Source: a virus
Lineage: Duplodnaviria; Caudoviricetes
DNA: 41,927 nucleotides
Virus record (IMG/VR): IMGVR_UViG_3300036864_000252
Coordinates: 1-41,927 of that record
Strand: one strand, 5' to 3'
Shown: positions 3,992 through 35,134 of the stretch, one piece after another
Position numbering within the stretch: the stretch's first letter is position 1
Layout of the letters: each line of letters starts with the position of its first letter
Translations under genes and position numbers: made by a program
Notes under the pieces: generated by a model
What the model was told of the DNA's origin: nothing
Seen by the model: only the letters and a program-made list of their open reading frames with translations
Database searches by the model: none

Positions 3992-4189
3992 CGTATCCTT
4001 CCTGGACTTGGTGGACTTACCAGGAATCGCCGTGTCCTCATCTGGCTTATCCCGCATAAGACTTTCGTACTTAGCCACCAAAAGATCAACTGCAGTTTTC
4101 AGATCATCGACAGCTGCCGCAGCAGCCCGATGGGCCTTTTCGACATCTTCACGAAAAACATTGAGATGTGTTTGGTGAGTTTCAGACAT
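3989..4189 (-). CDS. Small helical hypothetical protein
   Basis: 66 aa; overlaps upstream ORF stop; GGAG RBS. Confidence 0.6.
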   Translation of the reverse strand: MSETHQTHLNVFREDVEKAHRAAAAAVDDLKTAVDLLVAKYESLMRDKPDEDTAIPGKSTKSRKDT

Positions 4190-4442
4190 TGAGTTTCTCC
4201 TTCTTTGGTTTAGATCGATCTTCTAACGGTGGGATAATAGGTGGAGCAACATGATTGGGACCTCCGGAATCATCAACCCATTCATTTAAAAGTTTACCAT
4301 ACGTCCTAAAATCTCCACGAGTCCGCTCCAACTCTATTTCTATCTGATTGGCTTGAGACCGCACCGTTTCCAATTGATCGTAAAGCTCTCGACATTTGTT
4401 TTCAGCTTCATCGCGCAGCTCAACTAGCTTCTCTTTTTCCAT
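4182..4442 (-). CDS. Coiled-coil hypothetical protein, probably leaderless
   Basis: 86 aa with heptad pattern; TGC-TAAAAT ends 6 nt before the ATG. Confidence 0.65.
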   Translation of the reverse strand: MEKEKLVELRDEAENKCRELYDQLETVRSQANQIEIELERTRGDFRTYGKLLNEWVDDSGGPNHVAPPIIPPLEDRSKPKKEKLNV

Positions 4443-17827: not shown

Positions 17828-19402
17828 TTACCCACGTTTCGCCTCCCGATTATCAAAAGGCAGCAGCACGGTGGTCTTGATGAGCTCTGCCGCCACGCTG
17901 CAAGCATTGTTGACAATCTCTTTAATGACCATGGTCGGATCAACCACTCCGGCCTTTTTTAAGTCTATCAGCTTTTCGTCATCGGCCCGCAAATCATAAC
18001 CTTGCCATTCCTTAGCCGCCTGGACGTGCCACAGCGCCTTTTCAACATTGCGCCCGGCATTTTCCAAAAGCGCCCTAAAAGGCTGCTCAAAAGCTGTCTT
18101 AAAGGATATGGTGTCAGGCAGTCTGGCCAGTACCACGCCGCCACCCGGCACCACGCCATCTTTGATAGCTGCCTGGAGCGCGGCCACAGCATCCTCTACC
18201 CGAAGCTTGACCTCAGCCTGCTCGACTTCAGTGCTGCCGCCAACCCGTAGGATAGCAATCCGACCACTGAGCCGACCCAGCCTGGTGCGCACTGCCTCTT
18301 GCTCAATCGGAGACTGGGCCACCCGCAGCTCATCGGTTAGCTCATCGATGCGAGCCTGGAGCGCCGCTTCCTGCTCCTCGCTACGCTCAGCGTCGATTAT
18401 AGTGGTCGAGAATTCGTTCACCACCGCCTTGGCGGCTCCCAACATATCTACCGTAAAATCATTCGGATTAGAACCGCCGCTCAATACCTTAGCTCCGGTG
18501 TATAAGGCAACATCATCCATGAAGAGTGTCCGAAGCGCTCCGTAGTCCGGGCCATCAACGATCGTACAGGTTATGTGACCCTCCAGCCGGGCCTTGACCG
18601 CCACTGCCAGGGCTTCAGTTTGCACATTGCCAACAAGCAACAGCTCCCGAATATTGTTGCTGATGCACTTATCCAGAATCGGAGCAATGTCCCCTACGTT
18701 GGACAGTTCTTTTTCACATACCAGCACAAACACTTTGTCAAAGCGCGACTCAAGATTGCTTGGGTCAGTAAGGAGAGCGGCATTGGTGAATCCTTTTCTG
18801 AAGTAAAAGCCAGAGACAATGTCATTGTAAATACCGCTGCCACCAAAATTCTCAATGATCACGCCGCCATCGGCACCGATCTCCTGAACGGTATCAGACA
18901 CCAGGCTGCCTACCGCCTCGTCACTGGCGGATATGACCGCTACATCCCTGAGCAGTTCCGGTGTGGATGCTACCTTGAGCTTGTCGACATGCTCCACTAC
19001 CTCAGTCGCCGTAGCTTGCAGCCTGCGCGCAATGCTCATACGCGACTCTTTGGTGGACGCCAGCAAGGCTATGGCTTCCTGGTACAACGACCGGGCAAGG
19101 ATTACTGCTCCAGTCGTACCATCACCCACATGGACATTAGTTGAACGTGAAGCCTGAGTAATAATCCGAGCAGCCATGTTGATGCCCGGATCGGTAATAT
19201 GCAAATGATCGAGGTTAAATACCCCATCATGGCTGATCAGCGGATCGCCGTACTGCGACTCTATCGCCACATTGCCAGACCGCGGCCCAAAGGCAGCCTT
19301 AGCCACTTCATAGGCCAGCTCAACGCCCTGCTTAATGGTCTCCTGGGCTTTGTCGCCCATAATGGGCAGACGGGTGTTGGTGGCGAGTCTTGCGGGTTGC
19401 AT
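17828..19402 (-). CDS. groEL: Phage-encoded group I chaperonin GroEL
   Basis: FGPRSGNV, ISHDGV, VGDGTT, AILRVGGSTEVE, RVEDA, GVVPGGG, GVVDP motifs; AAGGAG RBS; no C-terminal GGM tail. Confidence 0.93.
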   Translation of the reverse strand: MQPARLATNTRLPIMGDKAQETIKQGVELAYEVAKAAFGPRSGNVAIESQYGDPLISHDGVFNLDHLHITDPGINMAARIITQASRSTNVHVGDGTTGAVILARSLYQEAIALLASTKESRMSIARRLQATATEVVEHVDKLKVASTPELLRDVAVISASDEAVGSLVSDTVQEIGADGGVIIENFGGSGIYNDIVSGFYFRKGFTNAALLTDPSNLESRFDKVFVLVCEKELSNVGDIAPILDKCISNNIRELLLVGNVQTEALAVAVKARLEGHITCTIVDGPDYGALRTLFMDDVALYTGAKVLSGGSNPNDFTVDMLGAAKAVVNEFSTTIIDAERSEEQEAALQARIDELTDELRVAQSPIEQEAVRTRLGRLSGRIAILRVGGSTEVEQAEVKLRVEDAVAALQAAIKDGVVPGGGVVLARLPDTISFKTAFEQPFRALLENAGRNVEKALWHVQAAKEWQGYDLRADDEKLIDLKKAGVVDPTMVIKEIVNNACSVAAELIKTTVLLPFDNREAKRG

Positions 19403-20320: not shown

Positions 20321-20694
20321 TCCAATCCCGCTGCTTTCTTGGCAGCCTGTTCTGCCGCTCTGATTATCTTAGCCTTAGTAAGTCTTATGCTTCTCCAGTT
20401 TGCACCTTTTAAAAACTCTATCCAAAACCGATCATACCATTCTTGGCCGTTGATCTTGAGACGCCCATAAGCATCGTATTGTCTAGGCTCCTGAATAGAG
20501 TTTTTGTGCTGCTGGTTCTGAATAAATCGTAGATACTCAAGGTCATTTTTCATATGGAGTACATCACCTGGTGAAGTTAACTGCTTTGGTAGAGTGGAGA
20601 ACAAGCATGCTAGCAATTCTTCTCGTACCATAGCAAGTTCTTCGTTATTCATAGCTGTTAAATCTTTTTGATGTTCAGCTTGACTCACTCCCAC
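20317..20694 (-). CDS. Hypothetical protein
   Basis: 125 aa; overlaps the groES stop. Confidence 0.55.
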   Translation of the reverse strand: MGVSQAEHQKDLTAMNNEELAMVREELLACLFSTLPKQLTSPGDVLHMKNDLEYLRFIQNQQHKNSIQEPRQYDAYGRLKINGQEWYDRFWIEFLKGANWRSIRLTKAKIIRAAEQAAKKAAGLE

Positions 20695-20948
20695 CCCCCA
20701 ATCTCCTCCAGCTTAATAAGCGCCAAATCCTCTTTCTCGCCATATGGCGCAGTGTCTTCGTACTTGCCGAAGTAGACCATCTTGCCATCTTCAATACCTA
20801 GTTCCTGGCACTTGGCAATGATATCTGGCGCAATAGCCAACACCACCCCGCGCGTCTTGCTCGTGCCAAATTTCTCTTCAGTTGGGCTGAAGTTTTGGTA
20901 TTTGCCTTTGAGCTGGATGAGGAGGCGGCCTTGGATGGGGTGAATCAT
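20685..20948 (-). CDS. groES: Co-chaperonin GroES-like protein
   Basis: 87 aa; IHPIQGRLLI (cf. I.PL.DRV.V), RGVVLAIA, G..VYFGKY, ..LIKLEEIGG; mobile-loop region short and lacking the GGI motif. Confidence 0.75.
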   Translation of the reverse strand: MIHPIQGRLLIQLKGKYQNFSPTEEKFGTSKTRGVVLAIAPDIIAKCQELGIEDGKMVYFGKYEDTAPYGEKEDLALIKLEEIGGWE

Positions 20949-21101: not shown

Positions 21102-21239
21102 CTAGGCTTGTGTCGCATGTAACCTCCTTTTCTTACGCCTATAATACGCTGCATCCCGGCACTTCCGATTACAGTACTTACGAGCCCGGCCTGGATTCAT
21201 TTTACCGCAGTGGTCACACTTATAGTATGAGGTTGGCAT
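21102..21239 (-). CDS. 45-aa C4 zinc-finger protein with basic tail
   Basis: MPTSYYKCDHCGKMNPGRARKYCNRKCRDAAYYRRKKRR...; ATG 8 nt after the repeat-gene stop. Confidence 0.65.
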   Translation of the reverse strand: MPTSYYKCDHCGKMNPGRARKYCNRKCRDAAYYRRKKRRLHATQA

Positions 21240-21247
21240 GGCATTTT

Positions 21248-21505
21248 CTAATAGAGCCAAGACCAAGACCGAGACCGAGACCGAGACCCAGACCCAGACC
21301 CAGACCCAGACCCAGACCAAGACCCAGACCCAGACCAAGACCGAGACCCAGACCGAGACCCAGACCGAGACCCAGACCGAGACCAAGACCAAGACCGAGA
21401 CCCAGACCGAGACCCAGACCGAGACCGAGACCCAGACCGAGACCGAGACCAAGACCAAGACCCAGACCAAAGAGTATTCGGATTACCTAAAAGTACAGCT
21501 TGCAT
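21248..21505 (-). CDS. (Ser-X)35 repeat protein, copy B
   Basis: ATG, leader MQAVLLGNPNTLW, 35 dipeptides (8 SW, 14 SG, 13 SR), LY-stop. Confidence 0.65.
   Translation of the reverse strand: MQAVLLGNPNTLWSGSWSWSRSRSGSRSRSGSRSGSRSWSWSRSGSRSGSRSGSRSWSGSGSWSGSGSGSGSGSRSRSRSWSWLY
21257..21466. repeat. Aperiodic hexamer array B, 35 units
   Basis: Minus-strand units TCTTGG/TCTCGG/TCTGGG only. Confidence 0.95.
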
Positions 21506-21530
21506 ATCGACCTACTTTCAAAAACATTTT

Positions 21531-21860
21531 CTAATAGAGCCAAGACCAAGACCGAGGCCGAGACCCAGACCCAGACCCAGACCAAGACCGAGACCAAGAC
21601 CGAGACCGAGACCGAGACCGAGACCCAGACCGAGACCGAGACCCAGACCAAGACCCAGACCCAGACCAAGACCGAGACCAAGACCGAGACCGAGACCGAG
21701 ACCCAGACCAAGACCGAGACCCAGACCAAGACCAAGACCCAGACCAAGACCAAGACCCAGACCAAGACCGAGACCGAGACCGAGACCCAGACCAAGACCC
21801 AGACCGAGACCCAGACCAAGACCAAAGAGTATTCGGATTACCTAAAAGTACAGCTTGCAT
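21531..21860 (-). CDS. (Ser-X)47 repeat protein, copy A
   Basis: Same leader and LY-stop as copy B; 47 dipeptides (15 W, 14 G, 18 R including one PR). Confidence 0.65.
   Translation of the reverse strand: MQAVLLGNPNTLWSWSGSRSGSWSGSRSRSRSWSGSWSWSGSWSWSGSRSWSGSRSRSRSWSRSWSGSGSWSGSRSRSGSRSRSRSRSWSRSWSGSGSGSRPRSWSWLY
21540..21821. repeat. Aperiodic hexamer array A, 47 units
   Basis: Same three hexamers plus one CCTCGG variant. Confidence 0.95.
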
Positions 21861-21871
21861 AGTGTACTACC

Positions 21872-22132
21872 CTATTTCTGCTTCGTAGGTAGGTCGTGGT
21901 TCCAAGGAAATGCGTCAACTACAGCGCCAATACTCACACAGGCATCACCGACAGGCTCCACCTCGTTCAGGGTTCCTTCTTTCAAAGCGTTCGAAAAACG
22001 TCCGCTGTCGGCAATCCATGAAGCGTCAGATAGCTCAATCATGCCATCTTTGATGCCTTCGATCTTGCCAACCATGTGGTAGGTGACAGTACGAATAAAT
22101 ACCTTTTTGCCCGTTTCAATAACTTTGCTCAC
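21872..22132 (-). CDS. Small beta-barrel protein with Sm/LSm-like pattern (recalled as DUF6948-like)
   Basis: 86 aa; GKKVFIRTVTYHMVGKIEGIKDGMIELSDA fits the Sm1 pattern; AAGGAG RBS, GTG start. Confidence 0.6.
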   Translation of the reverse strand: MSKVIETGKKVFIRTVTYHMVGKIEGIKDGMIELSDASWIADSGRFSNALKEGTLNEVEPVGDACVSIGAVVDAFPWNHDLPTKQK

Positions 22133-22163
22133 TATGATCTCCTTTTACGCTGTTTATAAGTTC

Positions 22164-22192
22164 AATGTATCGTAATTGTATTGATGTGTCAA
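22164..22192 (-). promoter_or_regulatory. Sigma70-type promoter for the Sm-like/repeat/groES/groEL block
   Basis: TTGACA-17bp-TACATT. Confidence 0.75.
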
Positions 22193-22197
22193 CACGA

Positions 22198-22359
22198 TTA
22201 TTCACAACCCTTCGGACATGGAAAGCTGACTGCGTCGTCAAAGAGCATGTCAACGAATACTCCTCGGCTGTGGCCACAAGGCAGAATGATAGTATCTACT
22301 CTCTGGCCCTGCCACACATGGCACCAAGGTAGTCGCCAGTAGTAGACCGGATCACTCAT
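22198..22359 (-). CDS. 53-aa Cys-containing small protein
   Basis: MSDPVYYWRLPWCH...LPCGH...FPCPKGCE; ATG overlaps the terS stop; below the ORF-track cutoff. Confidence 0.45.
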   Translation of the reverse strand: MSDPVYYWRLPWCHVWQGQRVDTIILPCGHSRGVFVDMLFDDAVSFPCPKGCE

Positions 22360-22879
22360 CTGTCTCTGAGGTCGGCACTTGATTTACGAAGATTATCTGA
22401 TTTTCAGGTGGCGGATTCTCTTCAACCTTCTCATGGTAACCGAAGTTAACCTTTAGGTTAAAGATAGCTCCAGCAGCATTTTTACCTTGATGCAACATTA
22501 TTTCGTTGTATTCGCCTACTTTAGACCGAGCTCTTTTTATAGCGTCAGAAAACCTGTCCTTAGCTTTATACTCCATTAATCCCTGTCGACTCATTCCTAA
22601 ACGTAAAGCCAAGCCCGCCATTGTATAAGGCTGCTGAGCTGTTAATACCTTTCTCGTCATGAGAACCATACCAGCATCATAGTCACGCTTTCTAGTTCGT
22701 TTCAAGGCCCCGCCATGACCTTGAGGCTCCAAGCTCTCCTCTTTCTCCTCAATGAATGGATAGTCCCAATATTCCTGATCAATCCAATGAGGATCACACT
22801 CATAAAAATAAGCATCGACAATTGCCTGTAATTCCTCAACTGTCTTGTACTTCAAAGGTCTACCGCCTGGATGTGCCAT
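22352..22879 (-). CDS. terS: Terminase small subunit (P22 gp3-like DNA-packaging family)
   Basis: GGRPLKYKTVEELQ..VDAYF...PYTMAGLALRLGMSRQGL.EY...FSDAIKRA...GAIFNLK.NFG. Confidence 0.85.
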   Translation of the reverse strand: MAHPGGRPLKYKTVEELQAIVDAYFYECDPHWIDQEYWDYPFIEEKEESLEPQGHGGALKRTRKRDYDAGMVLMTRKVLTAQQPYTMAGLALRLGMSRQGLMEYKAKDRFSDAIKRARSKVGEYNEIMLHQGKNAAGAIFNLKVNFGYHEKVEENPPPENQIIFVNQVPTSETDE

Positions 22880-23588: not shown

Positions 23589-23610
23589 GCTCGTGTGCTA
23601 TCATAGCCCT

Positions 23611-24351
23611 ATGATCAACCTCGCTGCTTGGCAAAACGAAGTTTTAGGTAAAGTACTCAACGTGACCGGTAAAGACCCAGGAGAGTGTACGCAGGTGCCT
23701 CTCGCCTGGGGTATGGAGCTCTACCCTGGTAAGAAATGGTCAGCCCTGTTCCCTCCAGTTAAAAGCGCCAAAGATATGCTTGCCATCTACAATAAGAGCT
23801 ACTTCTGGGCTATCGCTAACGATCACAATGACCCCAACCAGCTGCCGCAAGCCGGGGACATCATGATCTTTGACGCCACACCTCAGAAAGGCTATGCCAA
23901 TACTTACCAGAATCCTTACGGGCATGCTGGTGTTTGTGTCAGTGCTTCGCCTTCGGGCTATACATTACTTGGTCAGAGTGTCGGGCACCCGGTGAACGAT
24001 ACCAGCTTTATGTGGCGCTGGAATCCATGTAAAGGCTGGTTGCATCCTTTGGTATTGCCTTTAGTGGTGGCCCATCCTGGTAAGGCGCCGGTGATGAGCA
24101 GCATGGTTGGTAAGACACTGCATTTGCCGGCTAAGAACCCTGACGGCAGCCCGGATACGCATTGGAATGTCTATCACGAGAATGGGCCCTATGACGTGGC
24201 TCAGGCGGTGGCGGTACTCAATCCGGCACTGTTTGGCGGACTAAGCTACAAGATACTGACCGATAAGGGCAATGGCATCTATGCTATCCAGACACAGATG
24301 TTCGGCCGGGTGGCTATTTGGACGCGCGGCACTAATGCTACTATTAACTGA
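23611..24351 (+). CDS. CHAP-domain endolysin with C-terminal cell-wall-binding domain
   Basis: GECTQV (Cys), PQAGDIMIF, YGHAGV (His); C-terminal LHLP...W.VY...LNP..FGGLSYKIL...FG.V.IW recalls Bacillus-phage lysin binding domains; start at ATG 23611 (leaderless). Confidence 0.8.
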   Translation: MINLAAWQNEVLGKVLNVTGKDPGECTQVPLAWGMELYPGKKWSALFPPVKSAKDMLAIYNKSYFWAIANDHNDPNQLPQAGDIMIFDATPQKGYANTYQNPYGHAGVCVSASPSGYTLLGQSVGHPVNDTSFMWRWNPCKGWLHPLVLPLVVAHPGKAPVMSSMVGKTLHLPAKNPDGSPDTHWNVYHENGPYDVAQAVAVLNPALFGGLSYKILTDKGNGIYAIQTQMFGRVAIWTRGTNATIN

Positions 24352-32958: not shown

Positions 32959-34350
32959 CTATGTTTTTGTTTTTATGATGTCAAAGACCTTTTTTGGGTT
33001 TTGGAGTACTAAGGCCAGTTTAGCACGTTTGCCAAGTTCCGGCGTAATGTCTAGTACTGGAGGCTCCGTGGGCTGCTCTATCTCCCGTTCCGACGTAAGG
33101 TTGGACTTACGCACTCCGAACCAGGAAAAACGCTCTGCCGCGTCCCAGGGACGGCCGTAGATCTCACCGTCCGGGCCGGTGAACCAGCCGCCGATAAGAA
33201 TTGGCTGCTGCCGGTGAATAGGCAACTGATGGCCATGCTCGTAATCAACTACCCGATCATCTTCGATCGCAAAATAGTACTTGGAAGTTATATTGCCAAA
33301 CTTGTCACGAAAGGGTTTATAGGTCGTACGCCAATCTACTGGAGGTTTTTCTTCTAGATCATCTGGATTTATCCAGGTACTCATCGACTCGCCCAGGTTA
33401 AGCGTCACACTCAGCATGCCGTTCAGGCGTTTATATACAAAATACTTGCCCTCCCGGAGCGTACCGCTCTTATTGACACCATTCAGGGCATCACTCATGG
33501 CGGAGTATCTTGGAACATCAAAGGAAACTCGTATGGTATCGGTGGTTGATGGTCTCAAGAAGGGAGGAGCTATAGTGGTCACCTTCGGTTTGGATAAAAC
33601 AGCCGGCTTTTTTACAATCGTTTCGGGCTTTGCAGGCTTGCTTACCTCTTCACAGTCGCCAGCTATGTAGCCCTCGGCCCGGTTACTATCCGGCATATAG
33701 AAGACGCCACCAAAGCGATGCTTAGCCTTAGCCTTCAACGTCACGACCGTACCAGCGGCAGTTGTACTGATCAGGTTTTGATTAAACGACTCCCATGAAG
33801 CATCCTGGAGATTGTACAGCCCGGATGTCGATATGAGCTTTACAGTCGTTGGCGAAATAGTTTCTACCTCATACATATCACCCGGCGCTTCATCGGCAAT
33901 CGGAGTAGGCGTCAAGGTCTCACCTTCCAACACTGACCGGTTCTTCGGAGTATACCAACCCAGTACATACGACCAGTTGTGAGAGACTATATGAGCTGAC
34001 TTTCCTCCCCAATTAGCATCAAACCCTTGCCAATGGTAGGGGGACACACTGCGCACAAAGAGACTGGCGTGACCGTAGTTTGCAGAGCCGGGCAGAGAAG
34101 TGCTAAATATAACGATATCTCCTGATCGCGGAGCGGAATCCACGCCCTCTACAAATGCAACTTTTTCCCAGTACTCGAGAAAAGTATCATCAGAACCATC
34201 CCACCAGTCGGCAGCATTAGCCCACTGGAAGGGAAGCCCAATGAAGCGACACCACTCAGCTACAAGCTGAACTGACTGGCCGGCGGTGGCCGGTACGTTA
34301 TCGAAGCTGATTACCTTGCCTTCATTCTGAGCAATAAAGCTGTCGAGCAT
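32959..34350 (-). CDS. CHAP-like lysin with catalytic Cys replaced by Ser and a long C-terminal region
   Basis: GQSVQLV (cf. GQCVDL), NAADWW, PRSGDIVIF, YGHASLF, FDANW; start at ATG 34350 with AAGGA RBS. Confidence 0.7.
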   Translation of the reverse strand: MLDSFIAQNEGKVISFDNVPATAGQSVQLVAEWCRFIGLPFQWANAADWWDGSDDTFLEYWEKVAFVEGVDSAPRSGDIVIFSTSLPGSANYGHASLFVRSVSPYHWQGFDANWGGKSAHIVSHNWSYVLGWYTPKNRSVLEGETLTPTPIADEAPGDMYEVETISPTTVKLISTSGLYNLQDASWESFNQNLISTTAAGTVVTLKAKAKHRFGGVFYMPDSNRAEGYIAGDCEEVSKPAKPETIVKKPAVLSKPKVTTIAPPFLRPSTTDTIRVSFDVPRYSAMSDALNGVNKSGTLREGKYFVYKRLNGMLSVTLNLGESMSTWINPDDLEEKPPVDWRTTYKPFRDKFGNITSKYYFAIEDDRVVDYEHGHQLPIHRQQPILIGGWFTGPDGEIYGRPWDAAERFSWFGVRKSNLTSEREIEQPTEPPVLDITPELGKRAKLALVLQNPKKVFDIIKTKT

Positions 34351-34375
34351 TATGTAGTCCTTAACAAGGAGTATA

Positions 34376-35134
34376 TCACAGCGATTTTGTCTGATAGAAC
34401 CGCCGTTTGACGCTCTCAAAGTTCTGCCGATCCTGACCAAGCGCCCGCCGGCCGGCCGTCAGTGCCGTCTCCCGGCGGTACAGCTCCTCGCCGCGGGCCT
34501 CATCCTGTTTGCGGATCGCTTCAGCCGAGGTTTCGTACTCTTTAATGAGCCGCTGGGTTTTTTCAAGACGATCCTCAGCTTCACGGATTTTAGTGCGCAG
34601 TTCATCGCTGCGCGTCGTGAACGCCTGCTCAGCTTGCACCAGACGCTCTTCAACATGGGTAAGCTTTTGACCATCTTGTTCTATCTTCTGGTTTATAGTA
34701 CTGAGCTCAGCTTGCTTATCCGTCAAAATGGTAATGGTACTTTCAGCCTGCAACCTGAGCTCAGTCAGCTTTTCGCTCCGCTCCACCTTAGTAGTCCGAT
34801 AGTCCTCCTGAACCAATTCAAGCTTACGGGTCTGCTCATCCAAATTATGGAGCGATACTCCTTCTTGGATAGAGAGCTCTTTAACGCGCCGCTCGGATGA
34901 CTCAATACGACTTCTGAAGGCCTGTGCTTTCTGAGCGTATTCTTTCTCTAGAGATAACTGTTTTTTCTTGAAGCTGCGTCTCAGTGCCGCTACCTCACGA
35001 TCATGATCCCGCCGGGTAACTCTAATGGCTTCTTGCAATTCACCCAGCTCCTGTTGAGCAGCGCTGGTAACTTCGTTGATCCGGCGTAGCTGCTCCTCAG
35101 CGTCACTGAGCTGCAGGGACAGGCGATCCGGCAT
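34376..35134 (-). CDS. Long coiled-coil protein
   Basis: 252 aa; continuous E/Q/R/L heptads. Confidence 0.7.
   Translation of the reverse strand: MPDRLSLQLSDAEEQLRRINEVTSAAQQELGELQEAIRVTRRDHDREVAALRRSFKKKQLSLEKEYAQKAQAFRSRIESSERRVKELSIQEGVSLHNLDEQTRKLELVQEDYRTTKVERSEKLTELRLQAESTITILTDKQAELSTINQKIEQDGQKLTHVEERLVQAEQAFTTRSDELRTKIREAEDRLEKTQRLIKEYETSAEAIRKQDEARGEELYRRETALTAGRRALGQDRQNFESVKRRFYQTKSL

What the first reader, a model, noticed from the sequence alone, without database searches (positions are those of the whole stretch)
21102..22192. Self-contained cassette: Sm-fold-like gene, two hypervariable (Ser-W/R/G)n genes and a zinc finger
Seen: a TTGACA-17-TACATT promoter precedes an 86-aa protein with an Sm1-like pattern, then two tandem genes with an identical 13-aa leader (MQAVLLGNPNTLW) and identical SWSWLY end but different arrays (47 and 35 dipeptides), then a 45-aa C4 zinc finger and groES. 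The constant flanks are nucleotide-identical while array order and length differ, so the arrays change much faster than their frame. The unique spacer at 21507-21524 argues for a real duplication. Established: Sm/Hfq rings bind short repetitive RNA, and RS-dipeptide domains mediate RNA binding and condensation in eukaryotes. Inference: either an Sm-like ring plus RS/W-rich partner proteins (nucleic-acid condensate, amyloid-like or anti-defence decoy) or an Sm-like ring that binds its own hexamer-repeat RNA. I know of no described function for this pairing. This is my best candidate for an undescribed system.
Basis: partly seen in the sequence, partly recalled or inferred. Interest (0 to 1): 0.85.

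Follow-up and report, generated by a model that had tools for sequence, protein, structure and literature searches.

The report
Phage Sm-fold protein with Ser-X peptides
This uncultured phage has a small gene for a protein predicted to have the Sm (RNA-chaperone) fold, followed by two short genes for basic peptides of serine alternating with arginine, tryptophan or glycine; the pair recurs in about nine of ten related phage loci checked, and the peptide likely serves as a separately encoded, fast-changing, nucleic-acid-binding tail for a ring that the Sm-fold protein would form.

Summary
An 86-aa gene (21872-22132) precedes two genes with identical 13-aa leaders and 47 and 35 Ser-(Arg/Trp/Gly) units; contigs of a public run support two distinct arrays. 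The protein is predicted to be Sm-fold (pLDDT 94; best structural hits Sm/LSm). Barrel and repeat gene are a widespread two-gene phage module: 74 of 80 homologous loci have an array nearby, and 44 of 50 mixed-array loci have the barrel. Selection acts on the peptide: the Ser codon is uniform within a locus but takes all six forms between loci, stops are absent, and the window's RNA hairpin is not conserved. The zinc finger, groES and promoter are not conserved parts. A sister module pairs DUF6948 with (Gly-Tyr/Asp/Ser)n. Best reading (0.4): an Sm-type ring likely docks the peptide leader and uses the array as a detachable disordered tail that binds nucleic acid. Function is untested. Ten literature searches found no description; this scan noted the same module on other genomes many times.

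The parts
22164..22192 (-). sigma-70-like promoter TTGACA-17-TACATT; local to this phage and its closest relative, not general to the family
   Evidence: L001 shows TTGACC-17-TACACT; 1 of 54 homologous loci scored
21872..22132 (-). 86-aa protein predicted to have the Sm/LSm fold with a helix inserted between strands 3 and 4; core gene of the module
   Evidence: family size
21531..21860 (-). repeat gene A: 13-aa leader, 47 Ser-(Arg18/Trp15/Gly14) units, net charge +18
21507..21524 (-). unique 18-nt spacer between the two copies, holding the ribosome-binding-site-like stretch before gene B
   Evidence: bridged by one contig at single-copy depth
21248..21505 (-). repeat gene B: same leader, 35 Ser-(Gly14/Arg13/Trp8) units, net charge +13
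21102..21239 (-). 45-aa Cys4 zinc-finger-like ORF; a neighbour, NOT a conserved part of the module
   Evidence: weak family hits only; 0 of 94 homologous loci

Best explanation
The 86-aa gene and the adjacent (Ser-Arg/Trp/Gly)n genes form a conserved two-gene phage module, in which a protein predicted to have the Sm fold likely forms a ring, likely docks the peptide's short leader, and would thereby carry a separately encoded, likely disordered Arg/Trp tail that would bind and condense nucleic acid in the infected cell. Shown: the pairing, stop-start coupling, selection on the peptide and rapid scrambling of the unit order. Predicted: the fold and a packed tandem of two barrels. Inferred: ring, leader docking, nucleic-acid binding. 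Keeping the tail on its own gene would let length, order and copy number (1-7 per locus) change without touching the ring. Arrays likely evolve by duplication and deletion of multi-unit blocks, which homogenises synonymous codons while selection keeps about 40% Arg, 30% Trp and 30% Gly at the X position. My odds: translated functional pair 0.9; direct binding 0.6; the whole mechanism 0.4.
For: Linkage: 74 of 80 viral loci (68 of 73 clusters at 90% identity) and 14 of 15 genome-contig loci carry an array. In reverse, 44 of 50 mixed-array loci carry the barrel against 0 of 27 (Ser-Trp)-type loci. Coupling: 33 of 57 peptide starts overlap the barrel's stop and 53 of 57 lie within -10 to +15 nt. 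Peptide-level selection: all six Ser codons occur across 74 arrays, nearly uniform within each; the closest relative (90% identical barrel) uses TCA throughout where the window uses TCT. 70 of 81 arrays use Trp + Gly + one Arg codon; none has a three-letter alphabet lacking Trp or Gly. No stop occurs inside 81 arrays; TAG 0 of 67 versus the same G-to-A change 12 of 132, p=0.009. Arg and Trp fractions vary no more than binomially over 52 arrays. Fold. Natural two-barrel fusions exist; one models at pTM 0.80, and its best match spans both domains (2x4j, Z 9.1, rmsd 2.9, 105 aligned). Dedicated partners: barrel subfamily 1 goes with hydrophobic leaders (94 leaders) and subfamily 2 with basic ones (24). 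L060 and L088 hold this module and the DUF6948/Gly-X module side by side, each with its own barrel and array. Whole-protein charge: median -3 (90% of 120 negative) beside basic peptides, +1 beside Asp-rich Gly-X peptides.
Against: No in-frame barrel-array fusion among 275 proteins fetched (lengths 151-255 aa were covered only through the best 150 rows). The charge contrast nearly vanishes in the core domain (medians 0 and 0). The leader/barrel match rests on two clades and may be shared descent. The sister module's peptide is acidic, so nucleic-acid binding cannot be the whole family's rule. The canonical Sm uridine-pocket residues (motif recalled) are not conserved, and there is no sequence match to any solved Sm protein. 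Three of five tandem models were poor (pLDDT 55-61). The arrays tolerate many missense changes, so specificity is low. No cultured phage with this subfamily was found, and no protein-level expression data exist here.
Confidence: 0.4

Rival explanations
1. Anti-defence decoy: the ring displays a hypervariable low-complexity peptide that soaks up a host defence sensor or enzyme (kinase, protease, transferase, nucleotide signal), with the Ser-X and Gly-X modules aimed at different targets.
For: Fast scrambling and copy-number change; no fixed genomic position or third partner; two opposite-charge versions can coexist in one phage.
Against: Composition is conserved while order looks near random, which fits a material property better than escape from a specific binder; no defence gene is linked.
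Confidence: 0.2
2. Toxin-antitoxin or host-takeover pair: the Arg/Trp peptide harms membrane, nucleoid or ribosome, and the mildly acidic barrel is its chaperone or antidote.
For: Peptides +18 and +13, barrel -2; Arg/Trp-rich peptides are membrane- and nucleic-acid-active (recalled); arrays of this kind nearly always have the barrel; many barrels have a strand-helix N-terminal extension of regulator type (sequences; resemblance recalled).
Against: The Gly-X sister peptides are acidic; extra peptide copies accumulate beside a single barrel; no antitoxin family was hit.
Confidence: 0.18
3. The ring binds its own hexamer-repeat RNA; the ORF is secondary.
For: Sm/Hfq rings bind repeat RNA (PMC9037510, passages); the window's array folds strongly (z -7.1); X codons are mostly NGG.
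Against: Folding is specific to TCT arrays (median z -5.4, n=6); TCG -0.65 (n=28), AGC +0.65 (n=6), AGT about 0 (n=2). Four of six bases change between loci while Ser is kept; L078 uses AGC-CGA/CTA without NGG; stops are avoided.
Confidence: 0.08
4. Translational sensor or tRNA sink: what matters is the act of translating one Ser codon and NGG codons many times over.
For: Single-codon uniformity within arrays and tight coupling to the barrel gene.
Against: No constant downstream gene to regulate; the array lies upstream of the barrel in 13 of 80 loci; block duplication explains codon uniformity.
Confidence: 0.06
5. Modified-peptide precursor (leader plus Ser-rich core), with the barrel as leader-binding factor or small enzyme.
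For: Constant leader with hypervariable core; many near-invariant polar residues in subfamily 1 (R14, T17, D42, R45, E57, E59, D73).
Against: No enzyme recurs beside the module in 94 loci; R14, R45, E57 and E59 are not kept in subfamily 2.
Confidence: 0.05

Closest known systems
Sm / LSm / SmAP / Hfq superfamily (yeast SmF 1n9r, SmAP1 1loj and 1i8f)
   Same: Predicted five-stranded bent barrel; Z 9.1, rmsd 2.0, 65 aligned to SmF; Foldseek's listed rows are all Sm/LSm chains. Hfq has a disordered tail that interacts with its core (PMC9037510, passages).
   Different: No sequence match; helix inserted between strands 3 and 4; uridine-pocket residues not kept (motif recalled); the low-complexity part is a separate gene.
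Pfam DUF6948 (PF22253) with its (Gly-Tyr/Asp/Ser)n neighbour
   Same: Same architecture: 62 of 80 Gly-X array loci have one barrel family just upstream, 5 of 6 tested are DUF6948; structural neighbours in BFVD.
   Different: The window's protein does not hit the Pfam model; profile-profile probability is only 19% (E 0.0013); the peptide is Gly-fixed and acidic; no function is published (0 papers).
Borg Sm ribonucleoproteins with amino-acid tandem repeats (PMC9879509, passages read)
   Same: Mobile-element Sm proteins joined to fast-evolving repeat-derived disordered regions.
   Different: There the repeats are perfect 4-17-aa units fused at the N-terminus of Sm proteins with intact Sm1/Sm2 motifs, in 5-6 of 19 proteins; here a separate gene with a three-letter variable dipeptide, nearly always present.
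Eukaryotic RS domains and the Arg-Gly tails of SmD1/SmD3/LSm4 (recalled)
   Same: Ser-Arg dipeptides, basic low-complexity tail beside an Sm fold.
   Different: No RNA-recognition domain; Trp and Gly alternate with Arg; bacterial-virus setting; no kinase or methylase linked.
Pyrobaculum spherical virus ORF137 (PDB 2x4j)
   Same: Best match to the two-barrel fusion model over both domains.
   Different: Listed as uncharacterised (PMC2883930, passages and supplement); 11% identity; no repeat partner known to me.

Membership tests
Sm/LSm/Hfq superfamily | five-stranded bent beta-barrel (Sm1 + Sm2) | tested here: met
   Predicted only: AF2 pLDDT 93.9; nine chains at Z>=8 counted, top rows all Sm/LSm
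Sm/LSm/Hfq superfamily | N-terminal helix before strand 1 | tested here: inconclusive
   Absent in the window's model; helices precede both barrels of the tandem homologue
Sm/LSm/Hfq superfamily | ring-shaped oligomer | tested here: inconclusive
   Tandem fusions exist and one models at pTM 0.80; no ring was modelled
Sm/LSm/Hfq superfamily | uridine-pocket residues (Asp/His/Asn loop, Arg-Gly; motif recalled, mapped by eye on the predicted strands) | tested here: not met
   Equivalent columns 28-31 and 67-68 are variable or Gly/Phe and Asn/Leu in 255 homologues
Sm/LSm/Hfq superfamily | RNA binding | not testable with these tools
   Needs a binding assay
DUF6948 (PF22253) | score above the Pfam cut-off | tested here: not met
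   No hit for the query or any of 72 alignment members
DUF6948 (PF22253) | remote homology by profile or structure | tested here: inconclusive
   hhalign 19%, E 0.0013; Atlas 0.89 to a cluster with 14% DUF6948; Foldseek E 2.5e-3
SR proteins | RNA-recognition motif joined to the RS domain | tested here: not met
   ORFs are a 13-aa leader plus array; no Pfam hit
Modified-peptide (RiPP) clusters | co-conserved modifying enzyme | tested here: not met
   No such recurring neighbour within 3-4 kb in 94 loci
Diversity-generating retroelements | adenine-specific randomisation to all four bases | tested here: not met
   Only 3 of 81 arrays use all four bases; adenines in TCA and AGC stay fixed. A reverse transcriptase was not searched for specifically.

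The most novel reading that the evidence does not exclude
Phages of many hosts carry a split Sm-ring system in which interchangeable dipeptide-polymer tails (basic Ser-Arg/Trp/Gly or acidic Gly-Tyr/Asp/Ser), each docked by its own barrel through a short leader, build a phage-made condensate or fibre that shields phage nucleic acid or traps host defence: a bacterial-virus counterpart of eukaryotic Sm/RS/FUS-type sticker-spacer biology, tuned by array recombination.
Probability: 0.25. Interest if true: 0.9.

Novelty: categorically new. Interest (0 to 1): 0.7.

Why it matters
The barrel family is very large (1,819 clusters at 50% identity) yet has no Pfam or PHROG model. Its partner gene can be missed by annotation, as is the sister gene in phage phiPLPE. 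An almost obligatory pairing of an Sm fold with a hypervariable RS-like peptide in bacterial viruses would show that low-complexity, condensate-type tails are used and rapidly tuned outside eukaryotes. It is a two-gene system under 700 nt that can be tested directly.

Tried and rejected
Complex prediction of four barrels with residues 1-45 of peptide B: no answer (score 0.18 against a mark of 0.32); not evidence either way. Expression: three metatranscriptome runs hold 1,881-2,641 contig fragments like the array, but four DNA runs hold 1,029-2,930 too; all were small-share runs chosen for holding the array and none covers this phage's unique genes, so transcription is not shown. Array heterogeneity within the sample: no joints in X1, but contigs drop rare variants. 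Pfam, PHROG and PDB sequence searches of barrel and peptides: nothing. Longer forms: 5 proteins of 255-2000 aa, none with an array. Cultured phages: one uncultured record each for the two Ser-X subfamilies. Simple one-unit slippage rejected: adjacent identical units are depleted (286 against 374 +/- 15) while repeated 6-unit blocks are enriched (79 against 14 +/- 5). Other reading frames (Gly-Leu, Val-X, antisense Pro-Arg and Thr-X) rejected: they change with the Ser codon used. groES was not found in the two closest genomes. Literature searches found no description of the module; for all but the papers cited I saw only listings and abstract starts; most subscription journals are not searched. 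PMC4187194 does not mention ORF137. Borg supplements were not read.

Full report
Setting. The window is a whole 41,927-base virus record with direct terminal repeats. PHROG hits mark small and large terminase, portal, major head protein, groES, groEL, amidases, an exonuclease and NinB. The finding lies on the - strand between the small terminase gene (22352-22879) and groES (20685-20948).

Observation. Array A is 46 TCT plus one CCT, alternating with CGG 18, TGG 15, GGG 14; array B is 35 TCT with GGG 14, CGG 13, TGG 8. Logan contigs of run X1, possibly the source sample, bridge the A-spacer-B junction at flank depth and give two different array starts behind the same leader; they do not bridge the array interiors. 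The unit orders of A and B are no more alike than shuffles (longest shared run 6 units against 6.2), although leaders and ends are identical.

The barrel. No Pfam or PHROG family matches, yet 464 homologues were found by word search and 1,819 clusters at 50% identity by profile. AlphaFold2 gives pLDDT 93.9 with strands 10-15, 19-28, 31-42, 57-67, 71-76 and a helix at 46-52. Foldseek lists Sm/LSm chains (best E 5e-4); the independent wide search gives SmF at Z 9.1, rmsd 2.0, 65 aligned, with Hfq lower at about Z 6. The columns where Sm proteins keep their uridine pocket (motif recalled, mapped by eye) are not conserved in 255 homologues. Conservation sits in RTVTYH, WIADSGRF, EVEP and the C-terminal W-H-LP; by Sm topology the first three would lie toward the distal face (inference). 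Four proteins hold two barrel copies. One models at pTM 0.80 (two of five models good), and its top match, the uncharacterised viral ORF137, aligns over both domains (PMC2883930 passages and supplement). This fits barrel-barrel packing but does not show a ring.

The module. Of 80 IMG/VR loci kept from 176, 55 have an array right downstream, 13 right upstream, 5 on both sides, 1 at 627 nt and 6 none; 3 of the 6 end within 84 nt of the gene. At 90% identity this is 68 of 73 clusters. In genome contigs it is 14 of 15, in records labelled Solirubrobacterales, Saccharibacteria, Falkowbacteria, Phycisphaerae, Bacteroidetes and others. In reverse, a pattern scan gave 77 loci. Of 50 with mixed arrays, 44 have a barrel; 5 of the 6 misses have under 200 nt upstream. 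None of 27 (Ser-Trp)-type loci has one. Seven of the 44 were found only after iterating a profile on these same loci, and some loci share a contig. This scan exposed a second subfamily (hhalign 92% to the first) whose peptides have basic leaders (median 4 Lys/Arg in 10 residues, n=24) against hydrophobic ones (median 1, n=94); two clades are not independent evidence. Peptide starts overlap the barrel's stop in 33 of 57. The zinc finger, groES, terminase and three other neighbours recur in 0 of 94 loci, and no modifying enzyme recurs; the commonest true neighbours are an exonuclease-like protein (14 loci) and small DNA-metabolism genes (labels from my reading of the sequences). A strict promoter match precedes 1 of 54 barrels.

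Peptide, not RNA. Across 74 arrays the Ser codon is TCG 32, AGC 16, TCT 15, TCA 8, AGT 2, TCC 1, nearly uniform within each. The nearest relative switched the whole array from TCT to TCA and sits behind a different upstream gene. A frame-blind scan of 81 arrays found no internal stop, although missense variants are common (p=0.009 for TAG). The variable base takes A/G/T in 59 and C/G/T in 11, all four in 3 and two letters in 8, as expected if Trp, Gly and any one Arg codon are wanted. The window's RNA folds strongly, but only TCT-type arrays do consistently. In 52 arrays with all three residues, identical neighbours are depleted (z -5.9), multi-unit blocks repeat, and Arg (0.41) and Trp (0.30) fractions are binomial while Gly is more spread. 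I infer block duplication and deletion under selection on composition.

Sister module. Of the first 80 Gly-X array loci (about 960 stretches estimated), 62 have one protein family just upstream; 5 of 6 tested are DUF6948. Homology to the window's family is weak. L060 and L088 carry both complete modules within about 1.2 kb, and L080 has both barrels, which suggests each barrel serves its own peptide. Whole barrels are more acidic beside Ser-X peptides (median -3 against +1), but core domains barely differ. The cultured phage phiPLPE has the pair with the peptide gene unannotated.

Mechanism. Shown: an almost obligatory, translationally coupled pair with a peptide under selection for composition. 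Predicted: Sm fold. Inferred: ring, docking of the leader as an added strand, and nucleic-acid binding or condensation by the Arg/Trp tail, by analogy with Hfq's tail (PMC9037510, passages), Borg Sm repeats (PMC9879509, passages) and eukaryotic Sm/RS tails (recalled). I give this 0.4, decoy 0.2, toxin-antidote 0.18, RNA ligand 0.08, translational sensor 0.06, modified peptide 0.05.

Novelty. It works like an Sm/LSm protein with a low-complexity tail, but fails the canonical pocket test and the DUF6948 cut-off, so I file it as Sm-fold, not as a member of either family. Ten searches found no paper on the pair; subscription literature is mostly outside them. Other agents of this scan reported the same module on other genomes; those notes are not independent support. 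This window adds a clean recent duplication with fully scrambled arrays.

Noticed in passing
window 17828-19402 and 20685-20948: The phage carries its own groEL and groES inside the terminase-to-head gene run; groES was not found in the two genomes with the closest barrels.
   Followed up: partly
L060 3892-5700; L088 2688-3833; L080 3312-4400: Ser-X and DUF6948/Gly-X modules side by side, each with its own barrel (no Gly-X array detected in L080).
   Followed up: partly
L069 3070-4400; L055 3100-4850; L082 3260-3800: Multiplied peptide genes around one barrel (7, 4 and 3 array segments); the first ORF in L069 is a degenerate Ser-X peptide with no DNA repeat left.
   Followed up: no
L078, just downstream of the match at 4001-4237: Array of AGC-CGA/CTA giving (Ser-Arg/Leu)n: the variable base has moved to another codon position and Trp is absent.
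   Followed up: no
proteins P0122, P0135, P0146, P0167: Natural tandem fusions of two barrels; the P0122 model best matches archaeal virus ORF137, whose crystal is space group H3 with 853 protein atoms.
   Followed up: partly
112-aa homologues such as P0016, P0021, P0022: N-terminal strand-helix extension (MKTLxISDETY...) resembling ribbon-helix regulators (recalled); 7 of 72 alignment members hit DUF7557 weakly.
   Followed up: partly
L295 1164-1409 (phiPLPE, EU876853): Unannotated Gly-X peptide gene behind the DUF6948-like gene of a cultured phage.
   Followed up: partly
window 21102-21470: Another frame of array B (Val-X) runs without a stop into the zinc-finger ORF; probably incidental.
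   Followed up: no
window 22198-22359: A second small Cys-rich ORF (53 aa) lies between the small terminase gene and the promoter; not conserved near homologues.
   Followed up: partly
window 23593-24351 and 32959-34440: Two separate amidase/endolysin-like genes on opposite strands.
   Followed up: no
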